From: Bacilli bacterium
GTDB lineage: Bacteria; Bacillota_I; Bacilli_A; RFN20; CAG-826
Length of the DNA: 49,108 bases
Reading direction: 5' to 3'
Assembly (NCBI GenBank): GCA_024683495.1
Contig: JAIKYF010000056.1
Coordinates: 1-49,108, forward strand
Under the pieces are notes generated by a model, which saw nothing but the letters and a program-made list of their open reading frames with translations, had not been told where the DNA came from and did not search any database. How positions within the stretch are numbered: position 1 is the stretch's first letter; the number at the start of each line of letters is the position of its first letter. Both the position numbers and the translations under genes were made by a program. This document shows positions 10,063-24,941 of this stretch, piece by piece.

Positions 10063-10119
10063 AAATCGTTAAAATTTTTAATGCGAGAGTCGTGCATTTG
10101 GTGTATCATAGCAAAGCAC

Positions 10120-10211
10120 GGAGACGTACCCAAGAGGCCGAAGGGGGCAGGTTGCTAACCTGTTAGTAGGGCTCTGCCCTAGCAAGGGTTCAAATCCCTT
10201 CGTCTCCGCCA
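10120..10211 (+). tRNA. tRNA-Ser (anticodon GCU), CCA encoded
   Basis: Acceptor GGAGACG/CGTCTCC; anticodon loop TTGCTAA; long variable arm; T arm AAGGG-TTCAAAT-CCCTT; 3' GCCA. Confidence 0.9.
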
Positions 10212-10391
10212 CGATTGATTGTCAAGACACGTACGATAAAGTGCGTGTTTTTTCTTATTTTTAAGCATTTTGCTATATTTGGTCTAGTGAATACAACTTT
10301 AATCATTTTGTAACTGGACACATAAAAACCCCGTGAAAAATCTAGACGGACACAAGGTTTAAATCATATGGCCAGTTTGAATGATGGGACA

Positions 10392-11642
10392 CTAACTAAG
10401 TAAAAACTTTTTTAGTGGAATAACTTTGATTAAAAATCCATCGATTTCAATTATTTTTTCCTCTTCGTAAGTTATAATTATCAAATTGGATTTTGACTGA
10501 TTAGCTTTCGCAAAAGCGATTAAATTATTAACTTCACGATCATAAGCATCTTTTTCATCGATTGAATACGCTACTTGAATTGCGGTATTAAGTTCGGAAA
10601 GATAAAAATCAATATCAGCTTTGTTGCCTTTGAAGTAGTAAAGACAATCTTTGTGAGTTCTATATAAGTGTAGAGCTACTATATTTTCTAATAACGAACT
10701 TCTTTTATTATCTAAGAAAAGGTTTAAAATTCCGTTGTCCATAAAATAATATTTTGGATTGCTATTCTTATCTAAAAAATAAGCACAATAATTTTCTAGT
10801 GTAAACAAGAGAAAAGCATCCTTACAATATCCACAATAATCAATAACTATATCTTTAGATATCTTATATCCTATGCCAGTAATAATATTTTGAATTTTAG
10901 TAAAAGAAAGGTCTTGCTTTACCGATTCAGCAATTTTTTTAATCATCAGTTTGACGCCATTCTCATTTCTTATATTGTTATGAACAATAATATCGTTATA
11001 AAGAACCTTCTGATAAACGTTCGAAACATACTCTCTTTTGTTTTTAAAGCTAACAGATTCGGGGAAACCACCATTAACAAAATAATTATTTAATAAACTA
11101 TTTATTTGTCCAATCTCTTTAACAGAATATCCTTCTTTGTTTGCTTTATTGGCTCTTAAAAACTCATCAAAAGAATACGTCATGATTTCCTTAGAAATGT
11201 ATCTTCCGCCTAGTTTTGCTTCCACTTCTTTTGAGAGCATTTTTGCGTTGCTTCCGGTAATGTCAACTTTATATCCTTGATTTACAATGCGAATGGCAAA
11301 CTTTTCCCAATCATCGATATTTTGAATCTCATCGAAATAGAAATAATGTTTTTTGTTTGATAATTCTTCTGCAACTAAAAGAATGTCATCAAAATCGTTA
11401 GCCGTGAATCCAAGCAATCTTTCGTCATCGAAATTTATATAAATAATTTGATTCCAATCAACACCTTCGTTAATTAATTCTAGCGCTCTTTTATAAAGTA
11501 ATGTTGTTTTGCCTGCTCTTCTTAATCCAACCAAAACATAATTAATATCTTTTTCTAAAACAATATTCCTGTCAATTATCACAGCATCTTTAATAACTTG
11601 ATGTTGATCAAAGATAATTCTTTTTAAAGTTTCACGATTCAT
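10392..11642 (-). CDS. AAA-family ATPase (AAA_14 plus DUF4143-like architecture)
   Basis: 416 aa with Walker A GLRRAGKTT and Walker B-like YFYFDEIQ. Very AT-rich coding sequence, unlike the neighbouring genes. Confidence 0.7.
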   Translation of the reverse strand: MNRETLKRIIFDQHQVIKDAVIIDRNIVLEKDINYVLVGLRRAGKTTLLYKRALELINEGVDWNQIIYINFDDERLLGFTANDFDDILLVAEELSNKKHYFYFDEIQNIDDWEKFAIRIVNQGYKVDITGSNAKMLSKEVEAKLGGRYISKEIMTYSFDEFLRANKANKEGYSVKEIGQINSLLNNYFVNGGFPESVSFKNKREYVSNVYQKVLYNDIIVHNNIRNENGVKLMIKKIAESVKQDLSFTKIQNIITGIGYKISKDIVIDYCGYCKDAFLLFTLENYCAYFLDKNSNPKYYFMDNGILNLFLDNKRSSLLENIVALHLYRTHKDCLYYFKGNKADIDFYLSELNTAIQVAYSIDEKDAYDREVNNLIAFAKANQSKSNLIIITYEEEKIIEIDGFLIKVIPLKKFLLS

Positions 11643-11804
11643 AAATATTCCATCTGTCGAGTATATTCTACAATAAATATAAATATTTGTCGAGTATGAT
11701 GTTTAGTTATTAAAATTTACAATTAAATAAAACTAGCAAGCGAACAATTAATGACAATAGGTTTTGTAATTTTTGGAATTCAACTCCTTTTTTTCATATA
11801 TACC

Positions 11805-11825
11805 GTATGTGTATCGACAATTGGA
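11805..11825 (+). repeat. 21-nt repeat unit copy 1 (GTATGTGTATCGACAATTGGA)
   Basis: Identical to 12082-12102. It runs into the 12-bp palindrome GAGACATGTCTC (11824-11835). Confidence 0.8.
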
Positions 11826-12081
11826 GACATGTCTCATTTTAATAGTCATTATTCTCCCAGAGCCAGCATGATAAATATTGTCTTTTCAGCCGGAGTAGAG
11901 CTATCTGTAAAAATGAATTGTTCAAACTTGTTATCTCGATGGTCAATATTTTTTCCCAGTTTTATTTTAAATATTTTCCCCCACTTTCTTTTACAATGAA
12001 ACAGGCTATTTCTTTTAAACAAAAATAGGTTTTTATAAAAAACGATCAAAACAACAGTGCAATGCGATTTTAGTCGAAGAA

Positions 12082-12147: not shown

Positions 12148-12171
12148 AAAGCGCACCAGCCGGTGCGCTTT
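12148..12171 (-). terminator. Rho-independent terminator at the end of the surface-protein operon
   Basis: The minus strand reads AAAGCGCACC-ggct-GGTGCGCTTT followed by CATTTTAG, immediately after the TGA of the 1686-aa gene. Confidence 0.75.
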
Positions 12172-12175
12172 TCTA

Positions 12176-15100
12176 TCATGGAGCGGTTATTGTTCCGTTT
12201 TGATCCATCGTGTAGCCAGAACTGAAGGTAACGATGTTATTGGTTGTGTCAAGTGAATCGGAAGTTCCTAGATCAATGATATTTCCGCTATCATCCAATG
12301 TCCAATAGTAAACCGAGCTGGTGCTTAACAATGCAGCCGGGGAAACATTTGTGTTTACCACGTGGCTCCAATCGTTAACGTAGAACCTGACGTAGCTATT
12401 GAGGTATTGACCGCTCTGCCATTCGAAGACATTCTCATCGATGGTGGTGCTCAAGGTGTAATTTTGATAGGAATAGATTGTTAAACCCAAACCTTGCGTG
12501 CAGCCATCAATAACGCTTTCTTGCCAGTTGTAACTTAATGTGAATCCACTTGGCAGAACTAATGTTGTTAATGACGTGCAATTATCCCAGAATGACCCTT
12601 TCGAATAGTTCTCATTCTTGACGATGTTGCAATTGCCGTTTGAGAAGGTGAAGGATGTTAGGGAGGAATTGTCTCTGAAACAACCGGTGAATAAAGTTAC
12701 ATTACTTCCCTGATACACCACCGAAGTTATAGCGGTGTTTTTGAATGATTCAGTTCCGATCGTAGTCACACTCGCCGGGATAACGATATCCCCGCCTAAC
12801 GATCCGGCTTGCTCAAAAGCATGGGCGTAGATTGTCTGCAATCTGGTGAGGTGCGCAAAATCGAAATTATTGAGGCTGCTGCACTTATAGAAGGCGTTAT
12901 CGTTAATGCCTGTGATCAAGGTGTTGTCTGCATTGTTCTTGGCGGTGAAGGAAGCTAGGCTTGTATCCTCGCTAAAGGCGTATCTGCCTATAGATTTTAC
13001 GTGAGAAGTATATTCGACATTAGTCAAAGATGTGCAATATGCAAAGCAATAATTGGCGAGGTTAATATTTCCTTTACCGTCCTCTGAAGGGAAAACGATG
13101 CTAGTAATCGGATTATTAGCAAAGGAAGATTCCCCTAACTGAATCTCGCTAGTGGTGATATTTGATAAATCAACCGTCTCCAAAGAGTCACAAGAACGGA
13201 AACTTTCCTTGGCAATAACACTGGTTCCGGCCGGGAAGGTAACGCTAGTCAAAGAATCGCAATTATAGAAGGCGGCATCATTAATGGTAACGGTTGCCGA
13301 GGTTGGCCAAGTAATCGAAGATAAGGAAGTGCAGTTCTTGAAGGCACTTGCGTTAATCGTAATCGAGCCGGTTACATTGCTTAAATCGATGCTTGTGAGG
13401 CCTGTACAATCTTGGAATGCTCCAGAACCGATTGTGAAGTTGGCGACATTTGGCGCAGTAAAATTCCTTAAAACCGTATTGTTTTTGAAACAATCACTAC
13501 CGATAGAGGAGTATCCTGTGTAAGTCAAATCGAGAACCCCGGGTTCGGCTATTCTTTCAGATGAAGTGGCGCCTGGAGTAGAATAAGTCATACCTGCAGT
13601 CGTGATGTCGGCAAACAAACCATCGGGAATAGATGCACCCTCATTGTAAGGAAGATTGACATAAGAAAGGATTTCGCAGCCGCTGAAAGCATATTCTGGA
13701 ACGATAAAATTCGTTAGCGATTCAGAACGAAGGTTGCATAAATTGTTCTCATATTGCCTAACCGGCACGTAAAGATAGACGTATGAATCGCTATCTGTGA
13801 CTGCCGTAGAGGTATAAGACTTTCTTGTGGCAATCGCGGAGAATAATGCTTGTGGAATGGTGTTATTGTTCGAATCCTTTGGGAAGGCTCCAAGCGACAA
13901 TTCATCAATCCAATAGCCCATCTTAAAGGCTCCAAACAAAGAAGCGGCTTCTCTATTGTTGGCATTATATGAAGTATATTCGCCGTTAGACCCCCAGACC
14001 GTAACTTCATTAGGAACTGTCCTCCTGAAATCGGCATAGTCCCTATTTAAAACTAACTGTAAGCCAGAAGCGTTCTTGGCAACGGCATCAGTGGAATAAA
14101 GACTGCTCGTGCATGTCTCGCTTGAAGCGTTCGTATAAGTGGAAGTGGTGTAGTATTGGCTTGTGCCATTCGCGAACGTAATCAAACGCAAGTCGATGCA
14201 GTTAGAGAAAACCGAGCCGATCTTGTTTGTGGTATTGGCGCTTGTGTTCTCGTAGAAGATGCAGTTCGAAGGAATGTTGCAAGCCTTTTGCAAACCGCTG
14301 AAAAGGAAAGCGTATTTCCCTATTTCGGTCAATCCGGAAGGGAAGGACCACTCCGACGGAGTATCGTTTCTGGAGTAGGAAGAGATTTTTCTTACACCAT
14401 ATGCCCTAATGAAAGCATATTCACCGATTCTGGTGATAGAGTTCGGCAATATTACTTCTTGTAACTCAGGGTGATTGGCGGCAATCGTTTTGTGATTGTT
14501 GGAATCCCACCCATCAGAAGAGAAGGCGGCTGAGAAAGCTGAGTCTCCGACTTCAGTGACGGTGTAAGTCGTGCCATCTTTAGTGACTGTCTCTGGAATT
14601 TTTGCTGATCCATTGAATGGCAAAGGGGTATTTTCTTCAACTCCGCCATAATCATCTGAATCATAGGAATTTGCCCTATCTCTATCATAAAGATATTTTG
14701 AAAGAATAGCGGTGGCATTGTTTCCAGTTCCTGAGCACACATAGGCACATTGTTCCTCGCGAATTCCATCACGTATAACTAATCTATTTGAATTGCCAGA
14801 ACCAAGAGAAACCGTGACGTTATTGATGCCCTTTGTAGGTTCGTTTATGGTTTCTTCATAATAAATGTTCTCATAGGTCGGCATTATCTGAGAAATGTTG
14901 TAACTGCTGATAAAGCCATTATTTTTCGATGTCGCGCTGCTATTAAAACAATAGCCGATATAGCCCTTGGTAGAAAAGCTCTCGTCGCCGATTGTCCTCC
15001 ATCTATAATTGTCGTTGATAGAAGAGGTGGACATTTCATTTCCATTTTTCCATGTATTGATGACGTTCATTACGTTGGCCTCGCCATTGTAATAGATATT

Positions 15101-17236
15101 GGTTGTTTCGGTGCTCGTTAAATAGAGGGCAGCCCTAGAGTTACCTTGCATAGAATCATATTGGAAGATCAATTTCGTCGATTGATTTGGCAAAATGAGG
15201 TTCTGCAATGCTGGGCCTGGTGCGAAATCGTTATGGTAACGCCCGGCATTAGAACCAACCGCAGGTTCTGACCACTTACCGTTTTCGCAATGGAAGAAGA
15301 TGGATCTCCCGCTTCTTTCCTCACAAATGAGGGTATGAAGATTTTCGCAGAAAGCAAAAGTTTGAATTGGAATGACAAGATTAGCGGTTTCGCTCGTTAC
15401 GTTAGAACCCTTGAAAATGACGGTACCGAGCAATGGGCAATTAGCGAAGAAATGGGCGGCGTATTGCGTGTAGTTAATGCCATCGAATTGGTTGCATATG
15501 CTGCTTGGAATACCGAAATGTGAGAATGTTCTTGGGAAAATGATAGTGGATAATTTATATTTTTCTGTCCCGTCGGTGTTGAAACGACTGTAATGGACTT
15601 TTCTATCAGCAAAGCCGGAGGATCCTCTTCCGTTGCCATAATAGCCCAATCTGTAGAATTGGTCGTGGCCCATAAAGACTAATTGGGATTTCTCGTCGTC
15701 ATAATCCCACCGGAAATCGGTAACGCCGATCATTTCGTTCGTACCTTCATTGCAGAATGCTTGATTACCGATGTATTTTAGGCCATAAGGCAAATGCAAG
15801 TATTTGAAATTTTGCCGATGCGGCGCTTTAGAGAAGGCGAAATCGCAAACTATTTCCAAATCGGTTAAGTCGGAAAGATCCACGCGGCTAAGGACTTCCA
15901 TCGATCCGGTTTCATCCGTTTTGCAGTCATTTATCGTTGGTACATCAACGACCACATTAGAATCGATGACTGTACAGTTGTTGAATCCGTCAAAGAAGCT
16001 GTTTTCTATCCGCCTTAAAGTGGTTGGCAGATATATGCGCCGAATGCTGCCTTTTATATCATTTAAGGCAGTTTGTGCGATTACTCTGACCTTGTTCTTT
16101 GGCTCGGTGATAGGTAGGTTATCAGGTATGGCCAAAAAGGTTACATTGCTAGTGGACCCAACGTATTTAGTGATGGTGACGTCATTAAATTCCCCGTTGG
16201 CGGTAACGGTGTATTCCCAGTCTTCATTACGATAGGAACCGCCGCTAATTAGCGTGTAATTACCATTCACATAATAGTTATTGGCGGCATTAGAGGGGTT
16301 ATCGCGGTCCTTATGCCATCCCCAGAGTGAATTATTGCCTGTTCCGTACCAAGTCGAGAAGTCGCTGCTTGAAGCGGAGAAGTAGAATTGAAGGCTGCTG
16401 CTGCAATAGTTAAAGGCATGTGGCTCAATCACGCCGTCGGAATCGAAGAAAATCTTTGGAATGAAGATTTTGGTAAGGCTTGTGCATCCTTGGAATGCTC
16501 TAGCGCGAATCGTCGTGATGGATTGGAAAGAAAGCATTGTTGAGAAACTAGAGCACCCATTGAAGGCTTCATAATCAATGATCTCAACCGCGGTTGGAAG
16601 ATACACGTTCTGCAAGGCCTTGCAGTTAAGGAAACAGAAAGCCGGAATCTTTCTAAGCGTCGAAGAAATGATGTCTTCGGTGCTTGGAGCGGAAACGGTA
16701 CAGGTATTTAAGGCGGACGTGCTTGTCGCGGATTTGTTGCTATTTTGGATATTGACGGTGGTCAGGCTCGTGCAGGAATAGAAAGCTGCCTCCCCGATTG
16801 ATTCGACGGTATAGGGGATGGTGATAGTTCTGATTCTGCTATAGATAAAAGCTTCATAGTCTATAACGCAAATTTTGGTGCTGAGAGTAATCGTGCTGAC
16901 ATAGAGATCTTGGAATCCGTTTCTCCAGATGCAAGTTACATCCTTTCCGTTATAGGTCGAAGGAACGGTCAAATTATTGCCGAAGTTAAATCCTCTTTTA
17001 TCTTCAGCCAAAGCGACAGCATATGTATTGGCATAAGTGCCAGATGAAATTAGATAATAAGAGAAATTCCCAGAAGTATCTTCATAATTACCTTCGATAA
17101 GATAATGTGGTTCGTTCTTTATCGGATCAAAAGCCCTATAAGTCGAGGCTCCTGTATCCGAACAGGAATAGTTAAGAGGAAGCATAACAAAAAGCAACGC
17201 TAGCATCTTAAGTTTTTCAAATAGTGCTTTTTTCAT
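12176..17236 (-). CDS. giant BspA-type leucine-rich-repeat surface protein (operon gene 4)
   Basis: 1686 aa. N-terminal signal peptide with a possible, non-canonical lipobox (LPLNYSC). Many LRR_5-like units (e.g. IPYTVESIGEAAFYSCTSLTTVNI, ...IGSGAFQDCTGLTSIDL, ...INASAFKNCTSLSSITW). No LPXTG. SD GGAGGAAAAAGA directly precedes the ATG. Confidence 0.8.
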   Translation of the reverse strand: MKKALFEKLKMLALLFVMLPLNYSCSDTGASTYRAFDPIKNEPHYLIEGNYEDTSGNFSYYLISSGTYANTYAVALAEDKRGFNFGNNLTVPSTYNGKDVTCIWRNGFQDLYVSTITLSTKICVIDYEAFIYSRIRTITIPYTVESIGEAAFYSCTSLTTVNIQNSNKSATSTSALNTCTVSAPSTEDIISSTLRKIPAFCFLNCKALQNVYLPTAVEIIDYEAFNGCSSFSTMLSFQSITTIRARAFQGCTSLTKIFIPKIFFDSDGVIEPHAFNYCSSSLQFYFSASSSDFSTWYGTGNNSLWGWHKDRDNPSNAANNYYVNGNYTLISGGSYRNEDWEYTVTANGEFNDVTITKYVGSTSNVTFLAIPDNLPITEPKNKVRVIAQTALNDIKGSIRRIYLPTTLRRIENSFFDGFNNCTVIDSNVVVDVPTINDCKTDETGSMEVLSRVDLSDLTDLEIVCDFAFSKAPHRQNFKYLHLPYGLKYIGNQAFCNEGTNEMIGVTDFRWDYDDEKSQLVFMGHDQFYRLGYYGNGRGSSGFADRKVHYSRFNTDGTEKYKLSTIIFPRTFSHFGIPSSICNQFDGINYTQYAAHFFANCPLLGTVIFKGSNVTSETANLVIPIQTFAFCENLHTLICEERSGRSIFFHCENGKWSEPAVGSNAGRYHNDFAPGPALQNLILPNQSTKLIFQYDSMQGNSRAALYLTSTETTNIYYNGEANVMNVINTWKNGNEMSTSSINDNYRWRTIGDESFSTKGYIGYCFNSSATSKNNGFISSYNISQIMPTYENIYYEETINEPTKGINNVTVSLGSGNSNRLVIRDGIREEQCAYVCSGTGNNATAILSKYLYDRDRANSYDSDDYGGVEENTPLPFNGSAKIPETVTKDGTTYTVTEVGDSAFSAAFSSDGWDSNNHKTIAANHPELQEVILPNSITRIGEYAFIRAYGVRKISSYSRNDTPSEWSFPSGLTEIGKYAFLFSGLQKACNIPSNCIFYENTSANTTNKIGSVFSNCIDLRLITFANGTSQYYTTSTYTNASSETCTSSLYSTDAVAKNASGLQLVLNRDYADFRRTVPNEVTVWGSNGEYTSYNANNREAASLFGAFKMGYWIDELSLGAFPKDSNNNTIPQALFSAIATRKSYTSTAVTDSDSYVYLYVPVRQYENNLCNLRSESLTNFIVPEYAFSGCEILSYVNLPYNEGASIPDGLFADITTAGMTYSTPGATSSERIAEPGVLDLTYTGYSSIGSDCFKNNTVLRNFTAPNVANFTIGSGAFQDCTGLTSIDLSNVTGSITINASAFKNCTSLSSITWPTSATVTINDAAFYNCDSLTSVTFPAGTSVIAKESFRSCDSLETVDLSNITTSEIQLGESSFANNPITSIVFPSEDGKGNINLANYCFAYCTSLTNVEYTSHVKSIGRYAFSEDTSLASFTAKNNADNTLITGINDNAFYKCSSLNNFDFAHLTRLQTIYAHAFEQAGSLGGDIVIPASVTTIGTESFKNTAITSVVYQGSNVTLFTGCFRDNSSLTSFTFSNGNCNIVKNENYSKGSFWDNCTSLTTLVLPSGFTLSYNWQESVIDGCTQGLGLTIYSYQNYTLSTTIDENVFEWQSGQYLNSYVRFYVNDWSHVVNTNVSPAALLSTSSVYYWTLDDSGNIIDLGTSDSLDTTNNIVTFSSGYTMDQNGTITAP

Positions 17237-17247
17237 TCTTTTTCCTC

Positions 17248-20200
17248 CTAATAAGTATAAGTTATGACGTCATCGGTACTACTGGCAGCCCCGAATAATG
17301 ATATTGATGTATTAACCAATCCTGGCAATGTCTCACTATGCGTTCGGCCATAGTTATTGACTGAGATGTGAGTCATCTTGGAGAGGTCTGTGGTAGTTAT
17401 CTTGAAGATATTGTCCTCGTATTTGAAACTGATATCTGATGTATCTGCCGCAAAGAGCGAACGATCTGAGTTAGTGAGCATGACATAGCAGCGTTGATTA
17501 TCCAAACGTGGATCATCGGCATCATACGTGGAGGCGTCACCTAAGGTGATGTTTGTCGTGGTGGTGCCAGTTCCGGAATCGTATGTGAAGCGCTCTTGCT
17601 TCGTAAAGTCGACGTTTCGGACCACGTCGTTGCTGGCATAGGTGTTATCGATGAACTCCAATTGACCATCATTTTGGCCCTGAGCGCAAACATAGAAGAT
17701 TTTCGCAATGCCCAATGATCCTGACGCGCCATTTCCCGGACCGGTTGCCGAACCAAGGCAATAGCGTCCTTGCGGAAGTTTGAATGTATGGGCGAATAAG
17801 CGGGTTTTGCCCGAGGTATATCCATATTCGCTGCCATAAGAGTATGTCTTCGGCATCGTCGCATCGATGGTGTTATTGGAACTGGTGATTTCCGTGAAAG
17901 TGGATCCGTCGTTATTGTAAACGCCAACATGTCCTGTTGATAATGAGCCATAGTAGGTGGTCTTGTAGTCAAAATAAGCTAAGTGATCATCTGTAGGCAT
18001 GAAGAATGCGTAATCTGGAGATTCGAAATCCTTATCGATATATCTCGCGGGCGCAGTCCCTTTGTATAAGGAATCATCATCGATTTTATAGACGCCTAGT
18101 GCCGCCGGTTTAGAGGTGTCAACCAGTCCTGCGACGACGGTGACATTGGCATAGGCGGTTTTAATCTCAAAATTGACCATGTTCGCGGCAGGGTTATTAT
18201 GTTCCTCGCTTTCCACGCAATACATATAGGTTCGGCTTTGATCGCCATAATGAGATAAGTTAGGAGTGGCGAAACTCGCGGAAAGAGAAGTGATTTCTTT
18301 GCCGTAGACGTTTCTTAACATGACACCGGATTTGGCGTTATTCTTTGGAATCGGATCGCCATTCTGGTCGATTAATTTGTAATAGAAATAGTTAGATAAG
18401 AACGATCCGCCGGGAGTGCTGGTGTCAACATCCGAGAAATAGAAAGACTTTGCCGCCCTTTGGGCATCTAATGGGAATCTAAAGAAGTAGTTTTGCCTCC
18501 ATTCACGGTAGGCGAAGACATCTGAGGATATCTCATCATATGATGGCAAATGGTGGCCCAAATAGAAATCGCTTGGGCTGTCGGAATTGAAAGAATCGCG
18601 ATATTTGGAGAAGGCGATGCCTGAATTGGCATCATATTCGCCAGTCGCATAATATAGATAGTAGCGGTCGTTATCATCGACGTCTTTAGCGGTGACATCT
18701 TCAGTGGAAACCAACGATTTGTCGATAGCGGAATAGACGTCGGCTTCGACGTGGTTGCCAGAAGAGTCGGTGGCGATGGTGAAAACGCCTAGGTCTTTAT
18801 TGGAGATAACCTTGTTTCCCCTGAAAGAAACCGTATCTTCCTCTTTAGTTACGTATTGCTTGACCTGGGATCCTCCGCTTTCGATATATCTATAACGGAG
18901 ATATTCAAGATATTTGCTTGTAGAAATCGGGGTATAGGAAATGGCGCTTCCATTATTCAAGGATTCCGAATTCGAGAAGGAGGAGGAGTTGATGACGTCA
19001 TTATAGACGGTCGTAAAGTCCAAAACGCCGATATCCTTACCGGTTTTAGTAGCGGCATCGGCTTCAAGGGCGGCAAGGTTATTAACGGTGTTGCCAGTTA
19101 AACCGATTAGGCCTAAGCTCGAGGCATTCTCTAGTGCATTATATGTATCGGCTAAGCCGGTGATATTCTCGCCATCATTCATTTTGAACGAGCCTTTATA
19201 AACATAGCAATCATGCAAAGATCCGTCGCAATGGCCAATCACTAAACCGATGTTGTTGGAATGACCCAACCCTAACGTCGTTTCCATGGAAATGGCGGTG
19301 CTGTTGATAGATTCTAAAGTGAAAAGGAAACTGAGGGTCAGCAATACTTTGGTATGCTCCAAACCATGGGAATCGGTTACGGAAGCGATTAGAGAGACGC
19401 TTGTCGAGGATTGAAGCGGGAATTCAACCCCTTCAAGATCCCTTTTGTCACCGAAAAGGGAGAAAATGTTGTCGGTATTTGGAGTTATGACCCCGTTGCT
19501 TTCGCTGATGAGGTTCCCGGAAATTAGGGTTTTATACTTATATCCATCGTTGTTTGGGTAGGAATAAGTGACTTGAGGAATCGTGGCTTCTCCATCATAT
19601 GTAAAATTTTCGGTGGAAACCGCGTTGAAAATCATATAGCCATAATTGTCGACGCTTTTACTGAAGGTGATTTCGTTGTCGCTGACTGAGGTATCGGGGT
19701 CGTAGGTGTAAGAAACGCCATTGGCTAAAGTGCTTGACGGACCATATAGACCAACATAGTCATCGGTATAGCCTAAGGTATTTATCGTCACATTGCTTAA
19801 GAATAGGTCGTGAACGAGCGAGCCATGCGCGGTATAGCCGAATAAGCCGGCATCTTCTGGGTCGGCATAGACGTTTAGGTTCTTGATTTCCAAACTCTGC
19901 CCGTCGAATTCCCCATAGAATGGCAATGATTCAGAGCCAATCGCGTTGATTGGGTTATTCGTATATGTCGAAGTCGACATGTCGAGGAATGGAACGGTCG
20001 TCATGGATGAGTCATTGAGGTAGCATAACGGCCCGGCTGAAGGATCGGCCCCATTTAGTTCCTCTAAACCGAGTTGGAAATAGGTTTTCGCGCCGAAAAC
20101 GCCTAAACCTTGAAGTCTAGACAAGTTATACATGTGGCGGGGTCTAGTGATGACGTATGGATTCTCTTCCGTTCCGGCGCCGGTCTCAAAATATGAACGC

Positions 20201-20337
20201 AAGGCAACTTGGCCATATGAGCCATTGCTGGAGGCGTATTTCACATAAACCGATAAAGTGGTGGTAATCGCGATCGCCCCGGCCGATATGGCGACCAACG
20301 CGGCTTCTATCCAGAGGAATGCTTTCAATTTCTTCAT
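17248..20337 (-). CDS. large secreted or N-terminally anchored surface protein, possible beta-helix (operon gene 3)
   Basis: 1029 aa with one N-terminal TM/signal segment. GTEENPYVITRPRHMYNL and DAGLFGY..GSLVHDLFLSNVTI resemble the entry and a GLUG-like turn of beta-helical adhesins; this reading is weak. No LPXTG. Confidence 0.6.
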   Translation of the reverse strand: MKKLKAFLWIEAALVAISAGAIAITTTLSVYVKYASSNGSYGQVALRSYFETGAGTEENPYVITRPRHMYNLSRLQGLGVFGAKTYFQLGLEELNGADPSAGPLCYLNDSSMTTVPFLDMSTSTYTNNPINAIGSESLPFYGEFDGQSLEIKNLNVYADPEDAGLFGYTAHGSLVHDLFLSNVTINTLGYTDDYVGLYGPSSTLANGVSYTYDPDTSVSDNEITFSKSVDNYGYMIFNAVSTENFTYDGEATIPQVTYSYPNNDGYKYKTLISGNLISESNGVITPNTDNIFSLFGDKRDLEGVEFPLQSSTSVSLIASVTDSHGLEHTKVLLTLSFLFTLESINSTAISMETTLGLGHSNNIGLVIGHCDGSLHDCYVYKGSFKMNDGENITGLADTYNALENASSLGLIGLTGNTVNNLAALEADAATKTGKDIGVLDFTTVYNDVINSSSFSNSESLNNGSAISYTPISTSKYLEYLRYRYIESGGSQVKQYVTKEEDTVSFRGNKVISNKDLGVFTIATDSSGNHVEADVYSAIDKSLVSTEDVTAKDVDDNDRYYLYYATGEYDANSGIAFSKYRDSFNSDSPSDFYLGHHLPSYDEISSDVFAYREWRQNYFFRFPLDAQRAAKSFYFSDVDTSTPGGSFLSNYFYYKLIDQNGDPIPKNNAKSGVMLRNVYGKEITSLSASFATPNLSHYGDQSRTYMYCVESEEHNNPAANMVNFEIKTAYANVTVVAGLVDTSKPAALGVYKIDDDSLYKGTAPARYIDKDFESPDYAFFMPTDDHLAYFDYKTTYYGSLSTGHVGVYNNDGSTFTEITSSNNTIDATMPKTYSYGSEYGYTSGKTRLFAHTFKLPQGRYCLGSATGPGNGASGSLGIAKIFYVCAQGQNDGQLEFIDNTYASNDVVRNVDFTKQERFTYDSGTGTTTTNITLGDASTYDADDPRLDNQRCYVMLTNSDRSLFAADTSDISFKYEDNIFKITTTDLSKMTHISVNNYGRTHSETLPGLVNTSISLFGAASSTDDVITYTY

Positions 20338-20348
20338 ATCTTCATTCC

Positions 20349-21812
20349 TCAGCTTTCTAACACCTGCGTGCCAGTGAAATATAAACCGAAATCACGATCG
20401 ATCATGTAAGTTTTTCCCAATCGGCCGGCGTGGAGGAAATAATTCGCATGGGTGTGATCGTAATCAATCGCGACATAGCAATGATAGACTCTGGTGTCAT
20501 TTAAGGGATTATAGGTTGATAAATCCGCGGTCATCGGCGGGATGATCAAAGAATCGCCATCTTCTTTGGTCCTCAGATTGCAGGTTGTGGTATAGCCTTC
20601 TCCGCTGAATTTATCGAAATAGGCGACGCTTTCGTCATCGACGGCGTTGGTTTTCTTATGGAGGGCCGTCCAAGCGGCCGAAGCGCTGTCAAATGGCGTG
20701 GCGGTGAATAAGGAATGATAGGCGTAGAAATCAGATGCTCTTAATGCGTTTCTATGAGCCTCATCGACATAGCCGGTGAGATTGGCGGTGCCGTCATTAT
20801 AATCGACGCCAGCGGTGTTGTATAAGCGCATGATGTTTAGTCCGGCGCGGATTTCGCTGACGTTTTTATAAGCGAGCTCAACATCGAGGATGACCATGGT
20901 GTTCTGAGATTGGACCGCGGTTGGGACGTAATCGACGATGGTGGGATATAAGGTTTTATCGGCTTGGCCATAATATTCGAGGTTGATCATGGTCGGGTCG
21001 AGAATATTACTGCCGATGATAGCTTCGTCATTTCTGCTATAGAGGTTGATTTCAATCCTATCGCTATAATAGCTGATCGTGTAAATGCCGGTCTTTAGGC
21101 ACTTTATCGTATTATTCTCGGTGATTTCGAAACGGCTGGTCTCAGAATCCAAAGAAGAATAGGTAAGGTAATTCGCGTGGGAACTGTCAGTGATTTTGTT
21201 GGTATCGAATAAGGAAAATTCCGCGCCGACGGGGATGACGACGTTGCTGACTGAGGAGCAAACTGTGGTGCTGACGGCATTGGTGTTAGACATGGCGATG
21301 GCATGGTCGCAAGACCAGACCGTCGAAGCGTCTTCGCCAGTGAAAACGGCATCGCCGATCAAATAATATTTGAAGGTCTCTTCGGCGCTATAGACGATAT
21401 TGTTCACTGTCCCGGTGCCGGAGGATTGATAGGTGTGGGAGACCTCTTCCCCAAGAGTGATGACCACATTATCGGTGGAGGTATTCCTATCAGAATAGTT
21501 GGCGTCTTCGGTCACGATCTTCTTAACGACCCCAGCCCCATCGTAATTGATGAATTCCGTGGTGTTCTTGTAATAGGGGTAGACATATTTAAGAGCTGAG
21601 ACTTTCTTGACAAAAACGTTCAAATCGCCGGCGACGGCGTTGATCTTCGGGCTCTTGGTGGTCACGGTGATCCAAGCGAAGGTGGCAAAACCGGCGGTGG
21701 AGATGGCTCCAACCGCGACAATGGACAAAATGGCGATCTTCTTCATGCCGCCCTTGCCTTCTTTACTCTCACGCTTAACGACGCGCTTCAACGTTTCAAA
21801 GAATCTGCCCAT
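20349..21812 (-). CDS. secreted protein with TasA/camelysin-type (SipW-cognate-like) signal peptide (operon gene 2)
   Basis: Likely start is ATG 21812 (MGRFFETLK...), with GGAG 9 nt upstream; the track starts at TTG 21827. Basic N-terminus, then a TM helix, then GFATFAWITVTTKSPKINAVAGDLNV. This parallels the GT(F/Y)A(Y/W)F..T....N.f.aGtLdl motif of TasA-family signal peptides. Confidence 0.6.
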   Translation of the reverse strand: MGRFFETLKRVVKRESKEGKGGMKKIAILSIVAVGAISTAGFATFAWITVTTKSPKINAVAGDLNVFVKKVSALKYVYPYYKNTTEFINYDGAGVVKKIVTEDANYSDRNTSTDNVVITLGEEVSHTYQSSGTGTVNNIVYSAEETFKYYLIGDAVFTGEDASTVWSCDHAIAMSNTNAVSTTVCSSVSNVVIPVGAEFSLFDTNKITDSSHANYLTYSSLDSETSRFEITENNTIKCLKTGIYTISYYSDRIEINLYSRNDEAIIGSNILDPTMINLEYYGQADKTLYPTIVDYVPTAVQSQNTMVILDVELAYKNVSEIRAGLNIMRLYNTAGVDYNDGTANLTGYVDEAHRNALRASDFYAYHSLFTATPFDSASAAWTALHKKTNAVDDESVAYFDKFSGEGYTTTCNLRTKEDGDSLIIPPMTADLSTYNPLNDTRVYHCYVAIDYDHTHANYFLHAGRLGKTYMIDRDFGLYFTGTQVLES

Positions 21813-21816
21813 CGTT

Positions 21817-22647
21817 TTATGCTCCAACCGTGAATGCCAGGCTGCTTAAGGAAAGGGTTTCATAGCAATTGCTATTGCCGGAGATATCTTTCTCATAGTA
21901 GCCGGTCGACTCGTTATATGTATAGAAAGTACCGCTATCGTTAGAGAATTCGATAGTGAGGAAAAGAACGCAGCGCTGCAAAGAAGGATTGAAAGAGGGG
22001 AAGCTATTGAAAATAGTTGCCGTTTGGGCAGGAACTGCCGGAGCGGTGGACGTAAAAGCATCGGTTAAGCCCTCTTGGATCCGATATGATTGATAAGCGG
22101 TGGCGATGTCGGTGAGGACATTCTCGGTGCTGGTGACGGCATAGGCATAGCCGTACATATTGATGGCCCACGATAATTTGACCGTTGTCGAAGAGTTGAT
22201 CTTAATATCTTCATCCGCGTTTTCCGACCAAGAATCCAAAGTGAACTTGGTGGGAGTGCCTTCGGTGATGACCATGGCATAAGTCAATTTATGGGCTGGC
22301 CAGAGTTGATCGATGGCTAATGGGTTGTCCGCTCCATCGACGGTCCCGCTTTCGTTGAGGGTGACCGCTTGGAAAGTGGCGGAAGCATAGGATTTCTCGT
22401 ATCCGGAATACTTGGAGACGTAGCTATTGTAATTGCCATCTTTAGTGGTTTCGTTGTCGGTGAATTTCCTGAGGTAGTAGAAATCGAATCCCACGCCATT
22501 GGCGCCGGCGAGTTCGATGGTATTGACGGTGACTCTGGAAGTGCGGGTGGTGGCGAACCAAGCGAAAGTGGCCATGCCTAAAGAAGCGAAGGTCACACTG
22601 GAACCTGCGATGAAGAAGAAAATTCTTTTTAACAGTTTCTTGTTCAT
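21817..22647 (-). CDS. secreted protein with TasA/camelysin-type (SipW-cognate-like) signal peptide (operon gene 1)
   Basis: 276 aa. The N-terminus MNKKLLKRIFFFIAGSSVTFASLGMATFAWFATTRTSRVTVNTIELAG matches the same motif. Its C-terminal beta-strand pattern resembles gene 2, so the two may be paralogues. Confidence 0.6.
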   Translation of the reverse strand: MNKKLLKRIFFFIAGSSVTFASLGMATFAWFATTRTSRVTVNTIELAGANGVGFDFYYLRKFTDNETTKDGNYNSYVSKYSGYEKSYASATFQAVTLNESGTVDGADNPLAIDQLWPAHKLTYAMVITEGTPTKFTLDSWSENADEDIKINSSTTVKLSWAINMYGYAYAVTSTENVLTDIATAYQSYRIQEGLTDAFTSTAPAVPAQTATIFNSFPSFNPSLQRCVLFLTIEFSNDSGTFYTYNESTGYYEKDISGNSNCYETLSLSSLAFTVGA

Positions 22648-22708
22648 AGCGTTCAGCTAAATAAAATAGCCCGTCCTCCTTACCAAGTTAACTTCCAGAA
22701 AGTCTATT

Positions 22709-22786
22709 CTGTTGGTAACTGGCTATCCGAGGCCCGGACCCTTTAGCTTTGCGTCACTCAGTTGCCCGAGTTTTGCTTTTCACACT
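22709..22786 (-). promoter_or_regulatory. c-di-GMP-I (GEMM-I)-like riboswitch aptamer
   Basis: Minus-strand RNA: GUGUGAAAAGCAAAACUCGGGCAACUGAGUGACGCAAAGCUAAAGGGUCCGGGCCUCGGAUAGCCAGUUACCAACAG. It has a GCAAA element, a hairpin ACUCGG-[GCAA]-CUGAGU with a GNRA loop, the hallmark ACGCAAAGC, and a second hairpin GCUA-AAGGG-UCCG[GGCCU]CGGA-UAGC. The 3' GCCAGUUACC resembles the Vc2-type GGGGUUACC. Confidence 0.75.
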
Positions 22787-22789
22787 GGT

Positions 22790-22795
22790 ATTATA
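22790..22795 (-). promoter_or_regulatory. -10 box TATAAT upstream of the riboswitch
   Basis: The minus strand reads GCGTATATAATACCAGTGTG, placing TATAAT about 4-10 nt upstream of the aptamer 5' end. No clear -35. Confidence 0.4.
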
Positions 22796-23100
22796 TACGC
22801 GTGTATGTGGGGAGGAAAGAGTTTTTTTCTTCTCGCCTCTCCCGCCTGACTTCTTTATCGCTGGTATATTTTTAAATAAAACGCCAAAGCAAAAGCCTAT
22901 ATAAAATAAATGTAAGGTTAATAAAGCGAGAAATATATCGATGAAATCTTGCCTTTTATTTAAATATAAAGGTAAATAATCGTGATGAGAATTAGCTCTA
23001 TACGATGAAAAACAACATGAAATCATATTCAAAAAACTTTAAACGAACGAAACAAATTTGTCCTAAATTGATGCGCTCTAGAATGGCGTATTTTAGCTTA

Positions 23101-24084
23101 TTAAATTGACAGATTGGTGGCCAATTGTCTCAAATTCTCATTTGATAAGAGTCTATCGATATCTTTAAGGGATTCGATGGTTTCTTTTTTATAATGGTCA
23201 TGAAGAGAATTGATTAATCGGTCTTCGAATTCTTTTCCCTTCCTTTTTTCGAATGTGGAAGTCAGTTCCTCATAGATCAAAATCAATAAGGCCCGACGGA
23301 GCATGATGAGGATGCTTTCCTCGATCCAATAAGCGAATTTAGTGTGAGGGAGATTCTTTTCCAAAGGCTTCATTTTTAGATAGAGCGGCAAGGCATCTAA
23401 AGGCTGGCGGTAGATATCGACAAAAGCAAAATCCGCGGCAAATCCCCCTTCTTTTAATAAATCGAAGGCGTCTTTCTCTATGATTTTGATTTTTTCTTTA
23501 TGAGGGAAATGGGGCAATAGATGCTCCTTGAATAGGCCAATGATCTCTTTTTCCTTTTCGATGATTATGACTTCTTTAACCTCGGGCTTATTGGAAATCA
23601 TGAATTGGTAATAACCCATCCCCAAGCCAAAGACCAAGACTACGCCTTTCGCCTCTCTGATGGGGTTTTCCATCGTATTGATCTCATGTGGGGTGACGCT
23701 CATCCAGATGAAATCACTTTCCATGAGGCAGGGGTAGGGGAATTCGTTCTCAAAATACCCTAAGTCCGTCACCTCTTTGTAGTTTTCTTCTTTTACGACT
23801 TTGAATTCATCCTTCAAGAAGACTTGTCTTGGGGCATAATATCTTTCGCAAAGCTGATATTTCCCCATCTTCCCTTTTATCTTATCACACAAAAGATAAT
23901 AGGGATTTGCGCGGAATTTTTCTTCTTTTAGAGGTGTTGCATATTCTTGGATGATCTCTAAAGGGAGCTCTTCTTCATAATGAATCAGCTCATTAAGATA
24001 GTCAGCGAAGCCGATATTGTCATCGAGCTGATTGATGTATCCTTCTAAAGCATCTAGGGTCTTTTTGTTACATTTGTTTTCCAT
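23101..24084 (-). CDS. spermidine-synthase-fold / class I SAM-dependent methyltransferase-like protein
   Basis: 327 aa. VVLVFGLGMGYY...VKEVIIIEKEKEII...IEKDAFDLL...FAFVDIY follows the aminopropyltransferase/MTase fold pattern. Confidence 0.4.
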   Translation of the reverse strand: MENKCNKKTLDALEGYINQLDDNIGFADYLNELIHYEEELPLEIIQEYATPLKEEKFRANPYYLLCDKIKGKMGKYQLCERYYAPRQVFLKDEFKVVKEENYKEVTDLGYFENEFPYPCLMESDFIWMSVTPHEINTMENPIREAKGVVLVFGLGMGYYQFMISNKPEVKEVIIIEKEKEIIGLFKEHLLPHFPHKEKIKIIEKDAFDLLKEGGFAADFAFVDIYRQPLDALPLYLKMKPLEKNLPHTKFAYWIEESILIMLRRALLILIYEELTSTFEKRKGKEFEDRLINSLHDHYKKETIESLKDIDRLLSNENLRQLATNLSI

Positions 24085-24146
24085 CTTGGATTAATTTTAT
24101 CTTTGAGATTTACTTAAGTAAACCTCATCGGTAAAATCATAACGTT

Positions 24147-24941
24147 ATGAATCGTTTGTTTGCCTTCGATATCGATGGGACCCTTCTACCTGACTATGAG
24201 GTCCCTCTCTCAGAGAATCTGGTCCGATCCCTTAATACCTTATTAAAAGAAGGCGACTTTATCTGTATCTCCACCGGCCGTCCTTATCTTGGGGCCGAAG
24301 GCATCCTCGATTCCTTAATCGACGGGAAGAAATACGTCCTAGGGGTCAATGGGTCCATCGTCTATGATAAAGAAGGCAAAGTCCTTATCACCAACACCTT
24401 CGATGATGAGTATTTCTATGAGCTTCTTCATCGTTTCGAGGATCGGGACGACATTTCGGTCTATTCCTATCATCCAGATGGGAGAATCACCTATTTTAAG
24501 ACTTCCATCGCCACCGAATTAGAGGTAAGAGTCAACCACGTCAAAGAGGAATACGCCCCCAAAACCTGCCAACATAATCAGATCCTCAAAATCATCGTCG
24601 CCGCATCTAAGGAAGTCGCCGCGACCATCAGTTTCCCCAAAAACGAGACCGATACCTATGAATTCACCAAATCCATCCCTGAATTCATCGAAATCATGAG
24701 AAAAGACGTCTCTAAGGGCAATGCCATCGAAGGATTAAGAAAGCAATTAGGCGTCAAAAAGGAGGACGTCTATTGCTTTGGCGATGGATTAAATGACGTC
24801 TCGATGTTTGAGCGATTCACCGGAATCGCCATGGGCAATGCCTCGAAAGAAGTCCAAAAGGCCGCTAAATACGTCACCACCCCCTGCGCGGAAGATGGGG
24901 TCTATTATGCCCTTAAGAATATTCTTAAAGTCGTCGATTAA
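24147..24941 (+). CDS. Cof-type HAD-IIB family hydrolase
   Basis: FAFDIDGTLL motif I; STGR; GDGLNDVSMF motif IV. Confidence 0.8.
   Translation: MNRLFAFDIDGTLLPDYEVPLSENLVRSLNTLLKEGDFICISTGRPYLGAEGILDSLIDGKKYVLGVNGSIVYDKEGKVLITNTFDDEYFYELLHRFEDRDDISVYSYHPDGRITYFKTSIATELEVRVNHVKEEYAPKTCQHNQILKIIVAASKEVAATISFPKNETDTYEFTKSIPEFIEIMRKDVSKGNAIEGLRKQLGVKKEDVYCFGDGLNDVSMFERFTGIAMGNASKEVQKAAKYVTTPCAEDGVYYALKNILKVVD

What the first reader, a model, noticed from the sequence alone, without database searches (positions are those of the whole stretch)
22648..22795. c-di-GMP-I (GEMM-I)-like riboswitch in the leader of a 10.5-kb surface-protein operon
The minus-strand leader of gene 21817-22647 reads TATAAT-N-GUGUGAAAAGCAAAACUCGGGCAACUGAGUGACGCAAAGCUAAAGGGUCCGGGCCUCGGAUAGCCAGUUACCAACAG. 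It contains the elements I associate with class I c-di-GMP aptamers. These are a GCAAA element, a 6-bp hairpin capped by a GNRA tetraloop (ACUCGG[GCAA]CUGAGU), the near-invariant ACGCAAAGC junction, and a second hairpin. That hairpin (GCUA/UAGC plus UCCG/CGGA) carries an asymmetric AAGGG bulge where a tetraloop receptor would sit. The 3' strand GCCAGUUACC resembles the V. cholerae Vc2 3' strand. The expression platform is unusual. The aptamer 3' segment UUACCAA is complementary to UUGGUAA, which runs directly into the only strong SD (UAAGGAGG). That SD lies 26 nt upstream of the annotated AUG. It is instead correctly spaced for a 4-codon mini-ORF (AUU UUA UUU AGC UGA) whose stop lies 6 nt before the AUG. 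No obvious intrinsic terminator follows the aptamer. Control may therefore be translational, by SD sequestration or re-initiation.
Basis: partly seen in the sequence, partly recalled or inferred. Interest (0 to 1): 0.8.

Follow-up and report, generated by a model that had tools for sequence, protein, structure and literature searches.

The report
c-di-GMP-I riboswitch, A20 variant
The leader of this 10.6-kb operon for exported proteins carries a genuine class I cyclic-di-GMP riboswitch, an ordinary member of a well-known family, with one ligand-contacting base changed from G to A and a predicted "ligand turns the genes on" design.

Summary
Rfam RF01051 (c-di-GMP-I) matches window 22711-22787 (-) over the full model at 56.0 bits (gathering 35, E 2e-8). 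No c-di-GMP-II match was reported.

The same aptamer precedes the orthologous, syntenic four-gene operon in about 20 uncultured rumen Bacilli/Erysipelotrichaceae contigs. Its helices covary (0 of 500 shuffles reach the observed score).

- The P2 base pairs as AGCU/AGUU plus GG/CC, not GCUA/UAGC.
- There is no tetraloop receptor, which is the described pattern for GYRA-loop GEMM RNAs.
- The ligand-contacting position 20 (window 22777) is A, not G. This is the GEMM-Ib signature. Orthologous leaders switch between A and G, and relatives encode canonical GGDEF and EAL proteins, so c-di-GMP remains the likeliest ligand.

Folding predicts an ON switch. A long anti-aptamer helix (22748-22715 with 22692-22655) replaces P2 and buries the GGAGG. 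It is followed by AUUUUAUUU, as in the orthologs' terminators. Whether the output is translational, transcriptional or both is unresolved. The 4-codon mini-ORF is not conserved.

Verdict: a new member of a known kind, of modest interest.

The parts
22790..22795 (-). -10 box TATAAT; predicted transcription start about 22786-22783, so the aptamer begins at the 5' end of the mRNA
   Evidence: Read from the sequence. The -35 is poor (TTTCCT), so the scan tool did not list the site. Orthologs have TTGACA plus a -10-like box at the same distance from the aptamer.
22711..22787 (-). GEMM-I (c-di-GMP-I, RF01051) aptamer
   Evidence: 56.0 bits against gathering 35, full model. 79.9 bits with clade model R1.
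22777..22777 (-). A at the position equivalent to Vc2 G20, which contacts the first base of the ligand
   Evidence: Model position 11 (consensus G) aligns to A. Among 21 related leaders with a letter at this column, 14 have A and 7 have G.
22756..22771 (-). P1a hairpin ACUCGG-GCAA-CUGAGU with a GYRA tetraloop
   Evidence: Rfam alignment. All 6 pairs show compensatory changes across relatives.
22748..22755 (-). Junction GACGCAAA, including the A47 equivalent at 22750
   Evidence: Invariant in the 22 aligned leaders.
22717..22748 (-). P2 hairpin: AGCU/AGUU and GG/CC at the base, GUCCG/CGGAU at the apex, loop GGCCU; no 11-nt receptor
22715..22715 (-). C92 equivalent, the Watson-Crick partner of the ligand's second G
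   Evidence: The CC is invariant in the alignment.
22655..22692 (-). 3' arm of the anti-aptamer helix. It pairs with 22748-22715 (all of P2 plus C92) through four segments: GCCAGUUAC/G-UAAC-UGGU, CCUC/GAGG, GGUCCG/CGGGCU and AGCUAAA/UUUAGCU.
   Evidence: MFE folds. Only 14 of 500 dinucleotide shuffles of the downstream segment fold as well.
22675..22682 (-). UAAGGAGG, a Shine-Dalgarno-like sequence 27 nt upstream of AUG. GAGG is paired with CCUC of the aptamer P2 in the ligand-free fold.
   Evidence: Unpaired probability 0.00 in the free fold and 0.31-0.62 with the aptamer enforced.
22659..22667 (-). U-rich tract AUUUUAUUU directly after the GC-rich base of the 73-nt hairpin 22740-22668 (-26.1 kcal/mol); possible extended terminator
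   Evidence: Orthologs have UUUUAAAUUU-type tails after their anti-aptamer stems.
22653..22667 (-).
   Evidence: Present in the sequence. It coincides with the U-tract, and no equivalent is visible in the ortholog leaders printed.
21817..22647 (-). Gene 1, 276 aa, N-terminal hydrophobic segment, no Pfam or NCBIfam family; first gene of the regulated operon
   Evidence: 37 homologs, all unnamed. AF2 beta-rich model with no significant PDB match.
20349..21746 (-). Gene 2, probable ATG start at 21746 (MKKIAIL...), with an N-terminal motif ATFAW like gene 1
17248..20337 (-). Gene 3, 1029 aa, N-terminal hydrophobic segment, no family
12176..17236 (-). Gene 4, 1686 aa, signal-peptide-like N-terminus, BspA-type leucine-rich repeats
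   Evidence: PF13306 at E 1.6e-77. Termini inspected.
12148..12171 (-). Intrinsic terminator closing the operon (10-bp stem AAAGCGCACC/GGUGCGCUUU followed by CAUUUUAG)

Best explanation
Window 22711-22787 (-) is a functional class I cyclic-di-GMP (GEMM-I) riboswitch aptamer at the very 5' end of the mRNA of a four-gene operon for exported proteins (22647 to 12176), which is closed by a terminator at 12171-12148. It belongs to the receptor-less GYRA-tetraloop subtype and carries A instead of G at ligand-contacting position 20. I infer that its physiological ligand is c-di-GMP and that it is a genetic ON switch. While the first roughly 100 nt are transcribed, the aptamer is the most stable fold. 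If ligand binds, P1, P2 and C92 stay engaged and the downstream region, including GGAGG and AUG, stays open. If no ligand binds, the segment 22692-22655 invades and replaces the whole P2 helix with a long anti-aptamer helix. That helix buries GGAGG and ends in AUUUUAUUU, blocking translation initiation, terminating transcription, or both. Shown: aptamer identity, its conservation and covariation, and the competing complementarity. Inferred: ligand identity, ON direction, and the level of control.
For: Aptamer identity: RF01051 56.0 bits against gathering 35, full length.

Conservation: the same aptamer precedes the syntenic g1-g4 operon in 15 of the 22 genome loci (L005 holds a truncated copy at its contig end) and in all 4 closest metagenomic relatives.

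Covariation: 92% of cells paired, 10 of 19 pairs with double changes, 0 of 500 shuffles reaching the score, and slid controls at 20-37% paired. The short P1 also covaries.

Conserved pocket bases: A47 and C92 are invariant.

Ligand: position 20 is A in 14 and G in 7 related leaders, and differs between the near-identical leaders L001 (G) and L002 (A). G20 aptamers discriminate against cGAMP, while A20 aptamers still bind c-di-GMP; the Clostridium beijerinckii A20 aptamer binds c-di-GMP at 30 nM and cGAMP at 463 nM (PMC6140456). Relatives encode a canonical GGDEF domain (GHAAGD...GGDEF) and EAL domains within a few kb of the operon.

ON logic: the aptamer equals the MFE up to nt 100, and the anti-aptamer then wins by 4.8 to 13.3 kcal/mol. 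GAGG is 0% unpaired in the free fold and 31-62% unpaired with the aptamer enforced. Only 14 of 500 shuffles match the complementarity. In orthologs the same 3' strand forms a terminator (L004 and L010; others) or pairs with the RBS/AUG region (L001, L002, L006, L008, L011). All of these designs predict ON switches.

Precedent: terminators competing with the 3' part of P2 are a described GEMM feature (PMC1950547).
Against: - No binding or expression data exist.
- The A20 pocket is the GEMM-Ib (cGAMP) signature, and no GGDEF or EAL gene lies in this 49-kb window.
- GGAGG sits 27 nt from AUG, too far for a normal Shine-Dalgarno sequence. Other genes here have it at -12 to -8, and orthologs of gene 1 mostly have no Shine-Dalgarno sequence. 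The SD-sequestration output is therefore uncertain.
- The hairpin before the U-tract is 73 nt and interrupted, so it is not a canonical terminator, and the scan tool found none.
- The window-specific platform has no close relative to test it by covariation.
- At least one intact GEMM-I element (Bc1) does not respond in vivo (PMC11218506).
Confidence: 0.75

Rival explanations
1. It is a GEMM-Ib-type riboswitch whose physiological ligand is 3'3'-cGAMP, or one that integrates both dinucleotides, rather than c-di-GMP alone.
For: Position 20 is A with C92 retained, which is the pocket of the Geobacter cGAMP riboswitches. A20G flips the selectivity of Gmet_0970 (PMC6456294). A-variants show improved c-AMP-GMP binding (PMC9481103). 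A20 predominates in this clade: 14 of 21 leaders plus all 4 closest relatives.
Against: Orthologous leaders of the same operon carry G20 in 7 cases, including near-identical pairs that differ only at this position. The only dinucleotide bound well by both pocket types is c-di-GMP (PMC6140456). The one Firmicute A20 aptamer measured prefers c-di-GMP about 15-fold (PMC6140456). The GGDEF domain beside the A20 leader in L010 has the canonical GHxxGD Asp, not the Hypr Ser (the residue rule is from my own knowledge of Hallberg et al. 2016). No cGAMP synthase was seen, although only about 270 kb of the clade was held.
Confidence: 0.12
2. Control is purely transcriptional. The long anti-aptamer hairpin 22740-22668 plus AUUUUAUUU is an extended intrinsic terminator homologous to the orthologs' terminators. 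GGAGG is simply part of the stem, not a ribosome-binding site.
For: The hairpin is -26.1 kcal/mol, has a GC-rich base, and is followed by 7 U in 9 nt. Orthologs have the order anti-aptamer stem, U-rich tail, AUG, without a Shine-Dalgarno sequence. GGAGG is 27 nt from AUG.
Against: The stem is interrupted and encloses an inner hairpin, and no terminator was called by the scan. The helix can extend over the U-tract itself (AGCUAAA/UUUAGCU), which fits sequestration better than termination. Several orthologs clearly sequester the RBS/AUG instead.
Confidence: 0.3
3. The strong Shine-Dalgarno sequence drives a 4-codon leader ORF (AUU UUA UUU AGC UGA), and gene 1 is expressed by re-initiation.
For: AUU lies 7 nt after GGAGG and the UGA stop lies 5 nt before AUG.
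Against: AUU is a very rare initiator (own knowledge). No ortholog leader has an equivalent ORF or a distant Shine-Dalgarno sequence. The 'ORF' coincides with the U-rich tract that is shared, as a terminator tail, with orthologs. A local hairpin GGCUA-UUUUAUU-UAGCU (-4.3 kcal/mol) could instead shorten the SD-AUG distance to about 10 nt.
Confidence: 0.05
4. The aptamer is intact but does not respond to its ligand in vivo, as reported for Bc1 in the Bacillus cereus group.
For: Precedent: PMC11218506. The window's platform is atypical compared with the orthologs.
Against: All conserved pocket and junction nucleotides are kept. The aptamer-operon linkage is maintained across proteins diverged to 25-49% identity. 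A significant competing helix exists.
Confidence: 0.08

Closest known systems
Vibrio cholerae Vc2 c-di-GMP-I riboswitch (the RF01051 reference structure)
   Same: Three-helix architecture, GC/GC clamp, ACGCAAA junction with A47, C92, and the GUUACC 3' strand (numbering as in PMC6140456).
   Different: Vc2 has G20, a GAAA tetraloop and the 11-nt receptor. The window has A20, a GCAA tetraloop, no receptor, and a much shorter P2.
Clostridium beijerinckii Cbe 1-2 (natural A20 GEMM-I aptamer)
   Same: An A20 pocket in a Firmicute. It binds both dinucleotides and prefers c-di-GMP (30 nM against 463 nM, PMC6140456). This is the behaviour I predict for the window.
   Different: A different gene context.
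Geobacter GEMM-Ib cGAMP riboswitches (Gs1761/pgcA, Gmet_0970)
   Same: A20 plus C92, and ON switches in which a terminator competes with the aptamer (PMC6456294).
   Different: Those are deltaproteobacterial, linked to the Hypr-GGDEF GacA and to exoelectrogenesis genes, and more than 1000-fold cGAMP-selective. Here orthologs alternate between G20 and A20, and a canonical GGDEF domain is nearby in a relative.
c-di-GMP riboswitch-controlled adhesin and pilus genes of Firmicutes (for example Bacillus thuringiensis Bc2/cap; Clostridioides difficile CD2831 and pilA1)
   Same: A second-messenger ON switch in front of surface or adhesion proteins. This is from my own knowledge; tandem c-di-GMP-II before surface-anchor genes is mentioned in PMC9481103.
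   Different: The regulated proteins here (g1-g3) belong to no described family. Several of the named examples use class II aptamers.
GEMM instances lacking the receptor, described by Weinberg et al. 2007 (PMC1950547)
   Same: GYRA loop, no receptor-like sequence, bulged A residues near the P2 base, and an expression platform competing with the 3' part of P2.
   Different: None of substance. The window fits this description.

Membership tests
c-di-GMP-I riboswitch (Rfam RF01051, GEMM-I) | Covariance-model score at or above the gathering score, over the full model | tested here: met
   56.0 bits against 35, model positions 1-87 of 87, E 2.3e-8.
c-di-GMP-I riboswitch (Rfam RF01051, GEMM-I) | P1a hairpin capped by a GNRA tetraloop, supported by covariation | tested here: met
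   ACUCGG-GCAA-CUGAGU. All 6 pairs show changes on both sides across 22 leaders.
c-di-GMP-I riboswitch (Rfam RF01051, GEMM-I) | Conserved junction ACGCAAA with the intercalating A47, and C92 pairing with the ligand | tested here: met
   Both are present (22750 and 22715) and invariant in relatives.
c-di-GMP-I riboswitch (Rfam RF01051, GEMM-I) | G at position 20, which recognises the ligand's first guanine | tested here: not met
   A at 22777. This is a known natural variant that still binds c-di-GMP through a protonated adenine (PMC6140456), so it modifies the pocket rather than excluding membership of the fold family.
c-di-GMP-I riboswitch (Rfam RF01051, GEMM-I) | P2 hairpin; a tetraloop receptor only when the loop is GAAA | tested here: met
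   P2 is present and covaries. The receptor positions are deleted, as is usual for GYRA loops (PMC1950547).
c-di-GMP-I riboswitch (Rfam RF01051, GEMM-I) | Location in a 5' leader on the coding strand, with an expression platform overlapping the aptamer's 3' part | tested here: met
   The aptamer ends 63 nt before AUG. The competing helix was predicted, and only 14 of 500 shuffles fold as well.
c-di-GMP-I riboswitch (Rfam RF01051, GEMM-I) | Selective, high-affinity binding of c-di-GMP and a ligand-dependent change in expression | not testable with these tools
   Needs in-line probing or ITC and reporter assays.
GEMM-Ib (3'3'-cGAMP riboswitch) | A at position 20 with C92 | tested here: met
GEMM-Ib (3'3'-cGAMP riboswitch) | Selectivity for cGAMP over c-di-GMP | not testable with these tools
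   Indirect evidence argues against it: G20/A20 interchange among orthologs, and the c-di-GMP preference of the Clostridium A20 aptamer (PMC6140456).
GEMM-Ib (3'3'-cGAMP riboswitch) | Host encodes a cGAMP synthase (Hypr GGDEF or DncV-like) | tested here: inconclusive
   None was found in the window or in about 270 kb of relatives' loci. The one GGDEF domain found is canonical. Whole genomes were not available.
c-di-GMP-II riboswitch (RF01786) | Match to the class II covariance model | tested here: not met
   No RF01786 match appeared, even at E up to 10, in 22550-22950.
c-di-GMP-I-GGC / c-di-GMP-I-UAU variants (RF03167, RF03168) | Best clan match at or above that family's gathering score | tested here: not met
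   RF01051 is the best-scoring clan member in the window, and the overlapping lower-scoring clan matches were dropped.

The most novel reading that the evidence does not exclude
The A20 pocket that predominates in this uncultured rumen Bacilli clade (the window, 14 of 21 related leaders, and all four closest relatives) reflects real sensing of 3'3'-cGAMP, or dual c-di-GMP/cGAMP sensing. This would extend GEMM-Ib-type signalling beyond Deltaproteobacteria to control a conserved operon of uncharacterised exported proteins plus a giant BspA-type LRR protein.
Probability: 0.1. Interest if true: 0.6.

Novelty: new member of a known kind. Interest (0 to 1): 0.3.

Why it matters
The finding gives a regulatory handle on a conserved but wholly uncharacterised four-gene module: three family-less exported proteins plus a 1686-aa BspA-type LRR protein. 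The module occurs in uncultured rumen Bacilli/Erysipelotrichaceae. Placing it under cyclic-dinucleotide control predicts a role in surface attachment or biofilm-type behaviour.

The set of about 25 orthologous leaders is also a natural experiment. It shows G20/A20 interchange in the ligand pocket and several different expression platforms (terminator, RBS sequestration, and a doubled 3' half).

The riboswitch itself is an ordinary, automatically annotatable member of RF01051.

Tried and rejected
- **SipW/TasA idea for genes 1 and 2.** I suspected from memory that the N-termini (ATFAWF...) are SipW-type signals and that gene 1 is TasA or camelysin-like. NCBIfam gave no hit even at E up to 10. 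Foldseek against PDB gave no hit at E of 0.001 or below, and the TasA fibre 8aur reached only E 0.068 with TM 0.21. Rejected as unsupported.
- **Source of the window.** The exact-sequence look-up of gene 1's product to find the sample found nothing on record.
- **Close relatives of the window-specific platform.** I scanned metagenome contigs with AGCCAGTTACC-N25-45-GGTAAGGAGG. All six hits were chance matches with no GEMM-I aptamer, so the platform could not be tested by covariation.
- **Primary papers.** The two PNAS 2015 papers on GEMM-Ib are not held in the library. I relied on PMC6140456, PMC6456294 and PMC9481103, which summarise them.
- **Promoter and terminator scans.** The scan did not list the TATAAT promoter because the -35 is poor, and it found no canonical terminator in the leader.
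- **Cyclic-dinucleotide enzymes.** No GGDEF, EAL or HD-GYP gene is in the window (Pfam of 28 ORFs).
- **Other copies.** The clade model R1 found no second GEMM-I copy in the window.
- **Chance match or spurious ORF.** ORF 22754-23032 (-), which overlaps the aptamer, was considered and rejected because of the E-value and the conservation of the aptamer.

Full report
**Observation.** A scan of the whole window against all 4227 Rfam families gives one riboswitch hit: RF01051 (c-di-GMP-I) at 22711-22787 (-). It scores 56.0 bits against a gathering score of 35, with E 2.3e-8, over model positions 1-87 of 87. A permissive local scan (E up to 10) adds only a meaningless snoRNA fragment. It gives no class II c-di-GMP match. 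The feature is real and far beyond chance.

**Anatomy.**
- The -10 box TATAAT (22795-22790) places the transcription start at about 22786-22783, so the aptamer starts at the mRNA 5' end.
- The alignment to the family model shows the GC/GC clamp and the P1a hairpin ACUCGG-GCAA-CUGAGU (22771-22756).
- It also shows the GACGCAAA junction with the A47 equivalent at 22750.
- P2 spans 22748-22717. Its base is AGCU/AGUU plus GG/CC with AG bulged, and its apex is GUCCG/CGGAU with loop GGCCU.
- The 3' tail ACCAAC contains the C92 equivalent at 22715.
Rfam, RNAfold and covariation all favour AGCU/AGUU.
- The seven model positions of the 11-nt tetraloop receptor are deleted. This is the described pattern for GEMM RNAs with a GYRA loop such as GCAA: they almost never have a receptor and often carry bulged A residues near the P2 base (PMC1950547).

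**Position 20.** The unpaired consensus G just before the clamp (model position 11, Vc2 G20) is an A here (22777). G20 contacts one guanine of c-di-GMP. In the Geobacter cGAMP riboswitches (GEMM-Ib) it is replaced by A (PMC6140456, PMC6456294, PMC9481103).

**Relatives.** The product of gene 1 (21817-22647) has only 37 homologs, all unnamed and metagenomic. A genome-collection scan found 22 loci, mostly in rumen 'Bacilli' or Erysipelotrichaceae MAGs. In L001-L017 (with exceptions such as L010) the four genes g1-g4 are syntenic.
- Fifteen of the 22 loci carry a GEMM-I-clan match about 40-170 nt upstream of the g1 homolog; L005 holds a truncated copy at its contig end.
- So do the four closest metagenomic relatives, at 46-49% identity.
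- On a model-based alignment of 22 aptamers, 92% of cells are paired.
- In that alignment, 10 of 19 pairs show changes on both sides, including all 6 pairs of P1a.
- None of 500 shuffles reaches the observed covariation, and partners slid by 1-3 columns are only 20-37% paired.
- A short closing P1 (the 5' GUG-type strand with the 3' tail after C92) also covaries.

**Ligand.** In the 21 related leaders with a letter at this column, position 20 is A in 14 and G in 7. A47 and C92 never vary. The four closest relatives are all A20. The near-identical leaders L001 and L002 differ at this position. G20 aptamers discriminate against cGAMP. A20 aptamers still bind c-di-GMP through a protonated adenine, and the one measured Firmicute A20 aptamer (C. 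beijerinckii Cbe 1-2) binds c-di-GMP at 30 nM and cGAMP at 463 nM (PMC6140456). Because orthologous operons use either pocket, the ligand common to both, c-di-GMP, is the most economical assignment.

Supporting this, relatives' loci encode EAL domains (L004, L020, L021) and a GGDEF domain (L010, whose own leader is A20). That GGDEF domain has the canonical GHAAGD and GGDEF motifs. The window itself holds no cyclic-dinucleotide enzyme, and whole genomes were not available. A cGAMP or dual-ligand reading therefore keeps about 10-12% probability.

**Expression platform.**
- Truncated folds show that the aptamer is the minimum-energy structure up to nt 100 of the transcript.
- From nt 105 onward an alternative fold wins, by 4.8 kcal/mol at nt 105, 11.1 at nt 119 and 13.3 at nt 132.
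- In that alternative, the whole of P2 plus C92 (22748-22715) pairs with 22692-22655.
- The pairing has four segments: GCCAGUUAC/G-UAAC-UGGU, CCUC/GAGG, GGUCCG/CGGGCU and AGCUAAA/UUUAGCU.
- GAGG of the Shine-Dalgarno-like UAAGGAGG is 0% unpaired in the free ensemble and 31-62% unpaired when the aptamer is enforced.
- Only 14 of 500 dinucleotide shuffles of the downstream segment fold as well with P2.
- Ligand binding should therefore keep the message open, which makes this an ON switch.

**Orthologs agree on the ON logic.** The same 3' strand (AGCCAGUUGCC) forms the 5' arm of a terminator in L004 and L010 (confirmed by the scan tool), and in L007, L009, L012, L014 and L015. In L001, L002, L006, L008 and L011 it pairs with the AGG...AUG region instead.

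**Level of control.** This is unresolved.
- GGAGG lies 27 nt from AUG, whereas other genes in the window have it at -12 to -8. Most orthologs of gene 1 have no Shine-Dalgarno sequence.
- The 73-nt hairpin 22740-22668 (-26.1 kcal/mol) has a GC-rich base followed directly by AUUUUAUUU. This resembles the stem-plus-UUUUAAAUUU arrangement of the orthologs, so an extended terminator is possible. However, the stem is interrupted and the scan called none.
- A weak local hairpin GGCUA-UUUUAUU-UAGCU (-4.3 kcal/mol) could bring GGAGG to about 10 nt from AUG in the ligand-bound state.
I give it about 5%.

**The regulated genes.** Genes g1-g4 (22647-12176) are tightly spaced and end at a strong terminator (12171-12148), giving a transcript of about 10.6 kb. 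Genes g1-g3 have N-terminal hydrophobic segments and no Pfam or NCBIfam family. An AlphaFold model of g1 (pLDDT 75) is beta-rich with no significant PDB match. Gene g4 is a 1686-aa protein with a signal-peptide-like N-terminus and BspA-type LRRs. 'Surface/exported protein operon' is a fair description, but no function can be named.

**Comparison and verdict.** This is a bona fide member of the GEMM-I fold family, of the receptor-less, A20 subtype. It is predicted to be a c-di-GMP-responsive ON switch. It is a new member of a known kind and would be found by routine Rfam annotation. Interest is modest (0.3). What lifts it slightly is the predominance of A20 in an uncultured clade and the uncharacterised operon it controls.

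Noticed in passing
L001-L003, L006-L009, L011, L012, L015, L023-L026 (e.g. L007:5803-6010): In 13 orthologous leaders one aptamer 5' half is followed by two alternative 3' halves. The proximal half (GAUAGCCAGYAACCUCA) lacks one or both base pairs at the base of P2. It runs straight into a strong terminator (AACCUCAAUUG...CAGUUGAGGUU-UUAUAUU). The distal half (GACAGCCAGUUGCC) restores both pairs in 13 of 13 cases. It is followed by a second terminator or an RBS-sequestering helix. Rfam picks the long version (126-133 nt) in L006, L011 and L015. This looks like a 'one-and-a-half aptamer' two-checkpoint design that I have not seen described.
   Followed up: partly
L012:1163-1237, L015:614-688 and 5825-5957, L014:5811-5892: Some relatives' GEMM-I-clan aptamers score best as the variant families. 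RF03167 c-di-GMP-I-GGC scores 60.5 bits (gathering 59) in L012, and 54.4 and 45 bits in L015. RF03168 c-di-GMP-I-UAU scores 52.9 bits (gathering 65.9) in L014. In the alignment these sequences still have A47 and C92.
   Followed up: partly
window 24108-24129: There is a perfect 14-bp palindrome TTTACTTAAGTAAA (24112-24125), extended by GAG/CTC. It is centred in the 62-nt gap between the divergent genes 23101-24084 (-) and 24147-24941 (+, Cof-type HAD phosphatase). It looks like an operator.
   Followed up: no
window 10001-12000: A low-GC island (31% against about 46%) downstream of the operon terminator holds an AAA_14/DUF4143 ATPase gene (10392-11642, -). It is flanked by a tRNA at 10120-10208 and is possibly a mobile or foreign insertion.
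   Followed up: no
L021:1888-2762 and L021:9048-9132; L018:138-215: More distant relatives have GEMM-I aptamers in other positions. One lies immediately downstream of an EAL-domain gene in L021. This suggests several c-di-GMP-riboswitch-controlled units around the g1/g3-like genes.
   Followed up: no
window 22647 and ortholog start sites: About half of the genes in the window, and most g1 orthologs, have no recognisable Shine-Dalgarno sequence; the AUG follows an A/U-rich stretch. This lineage may rely largely on SD-independent initiation, which bears on how translational riboswitch platforms work here.
   Followed up: partly
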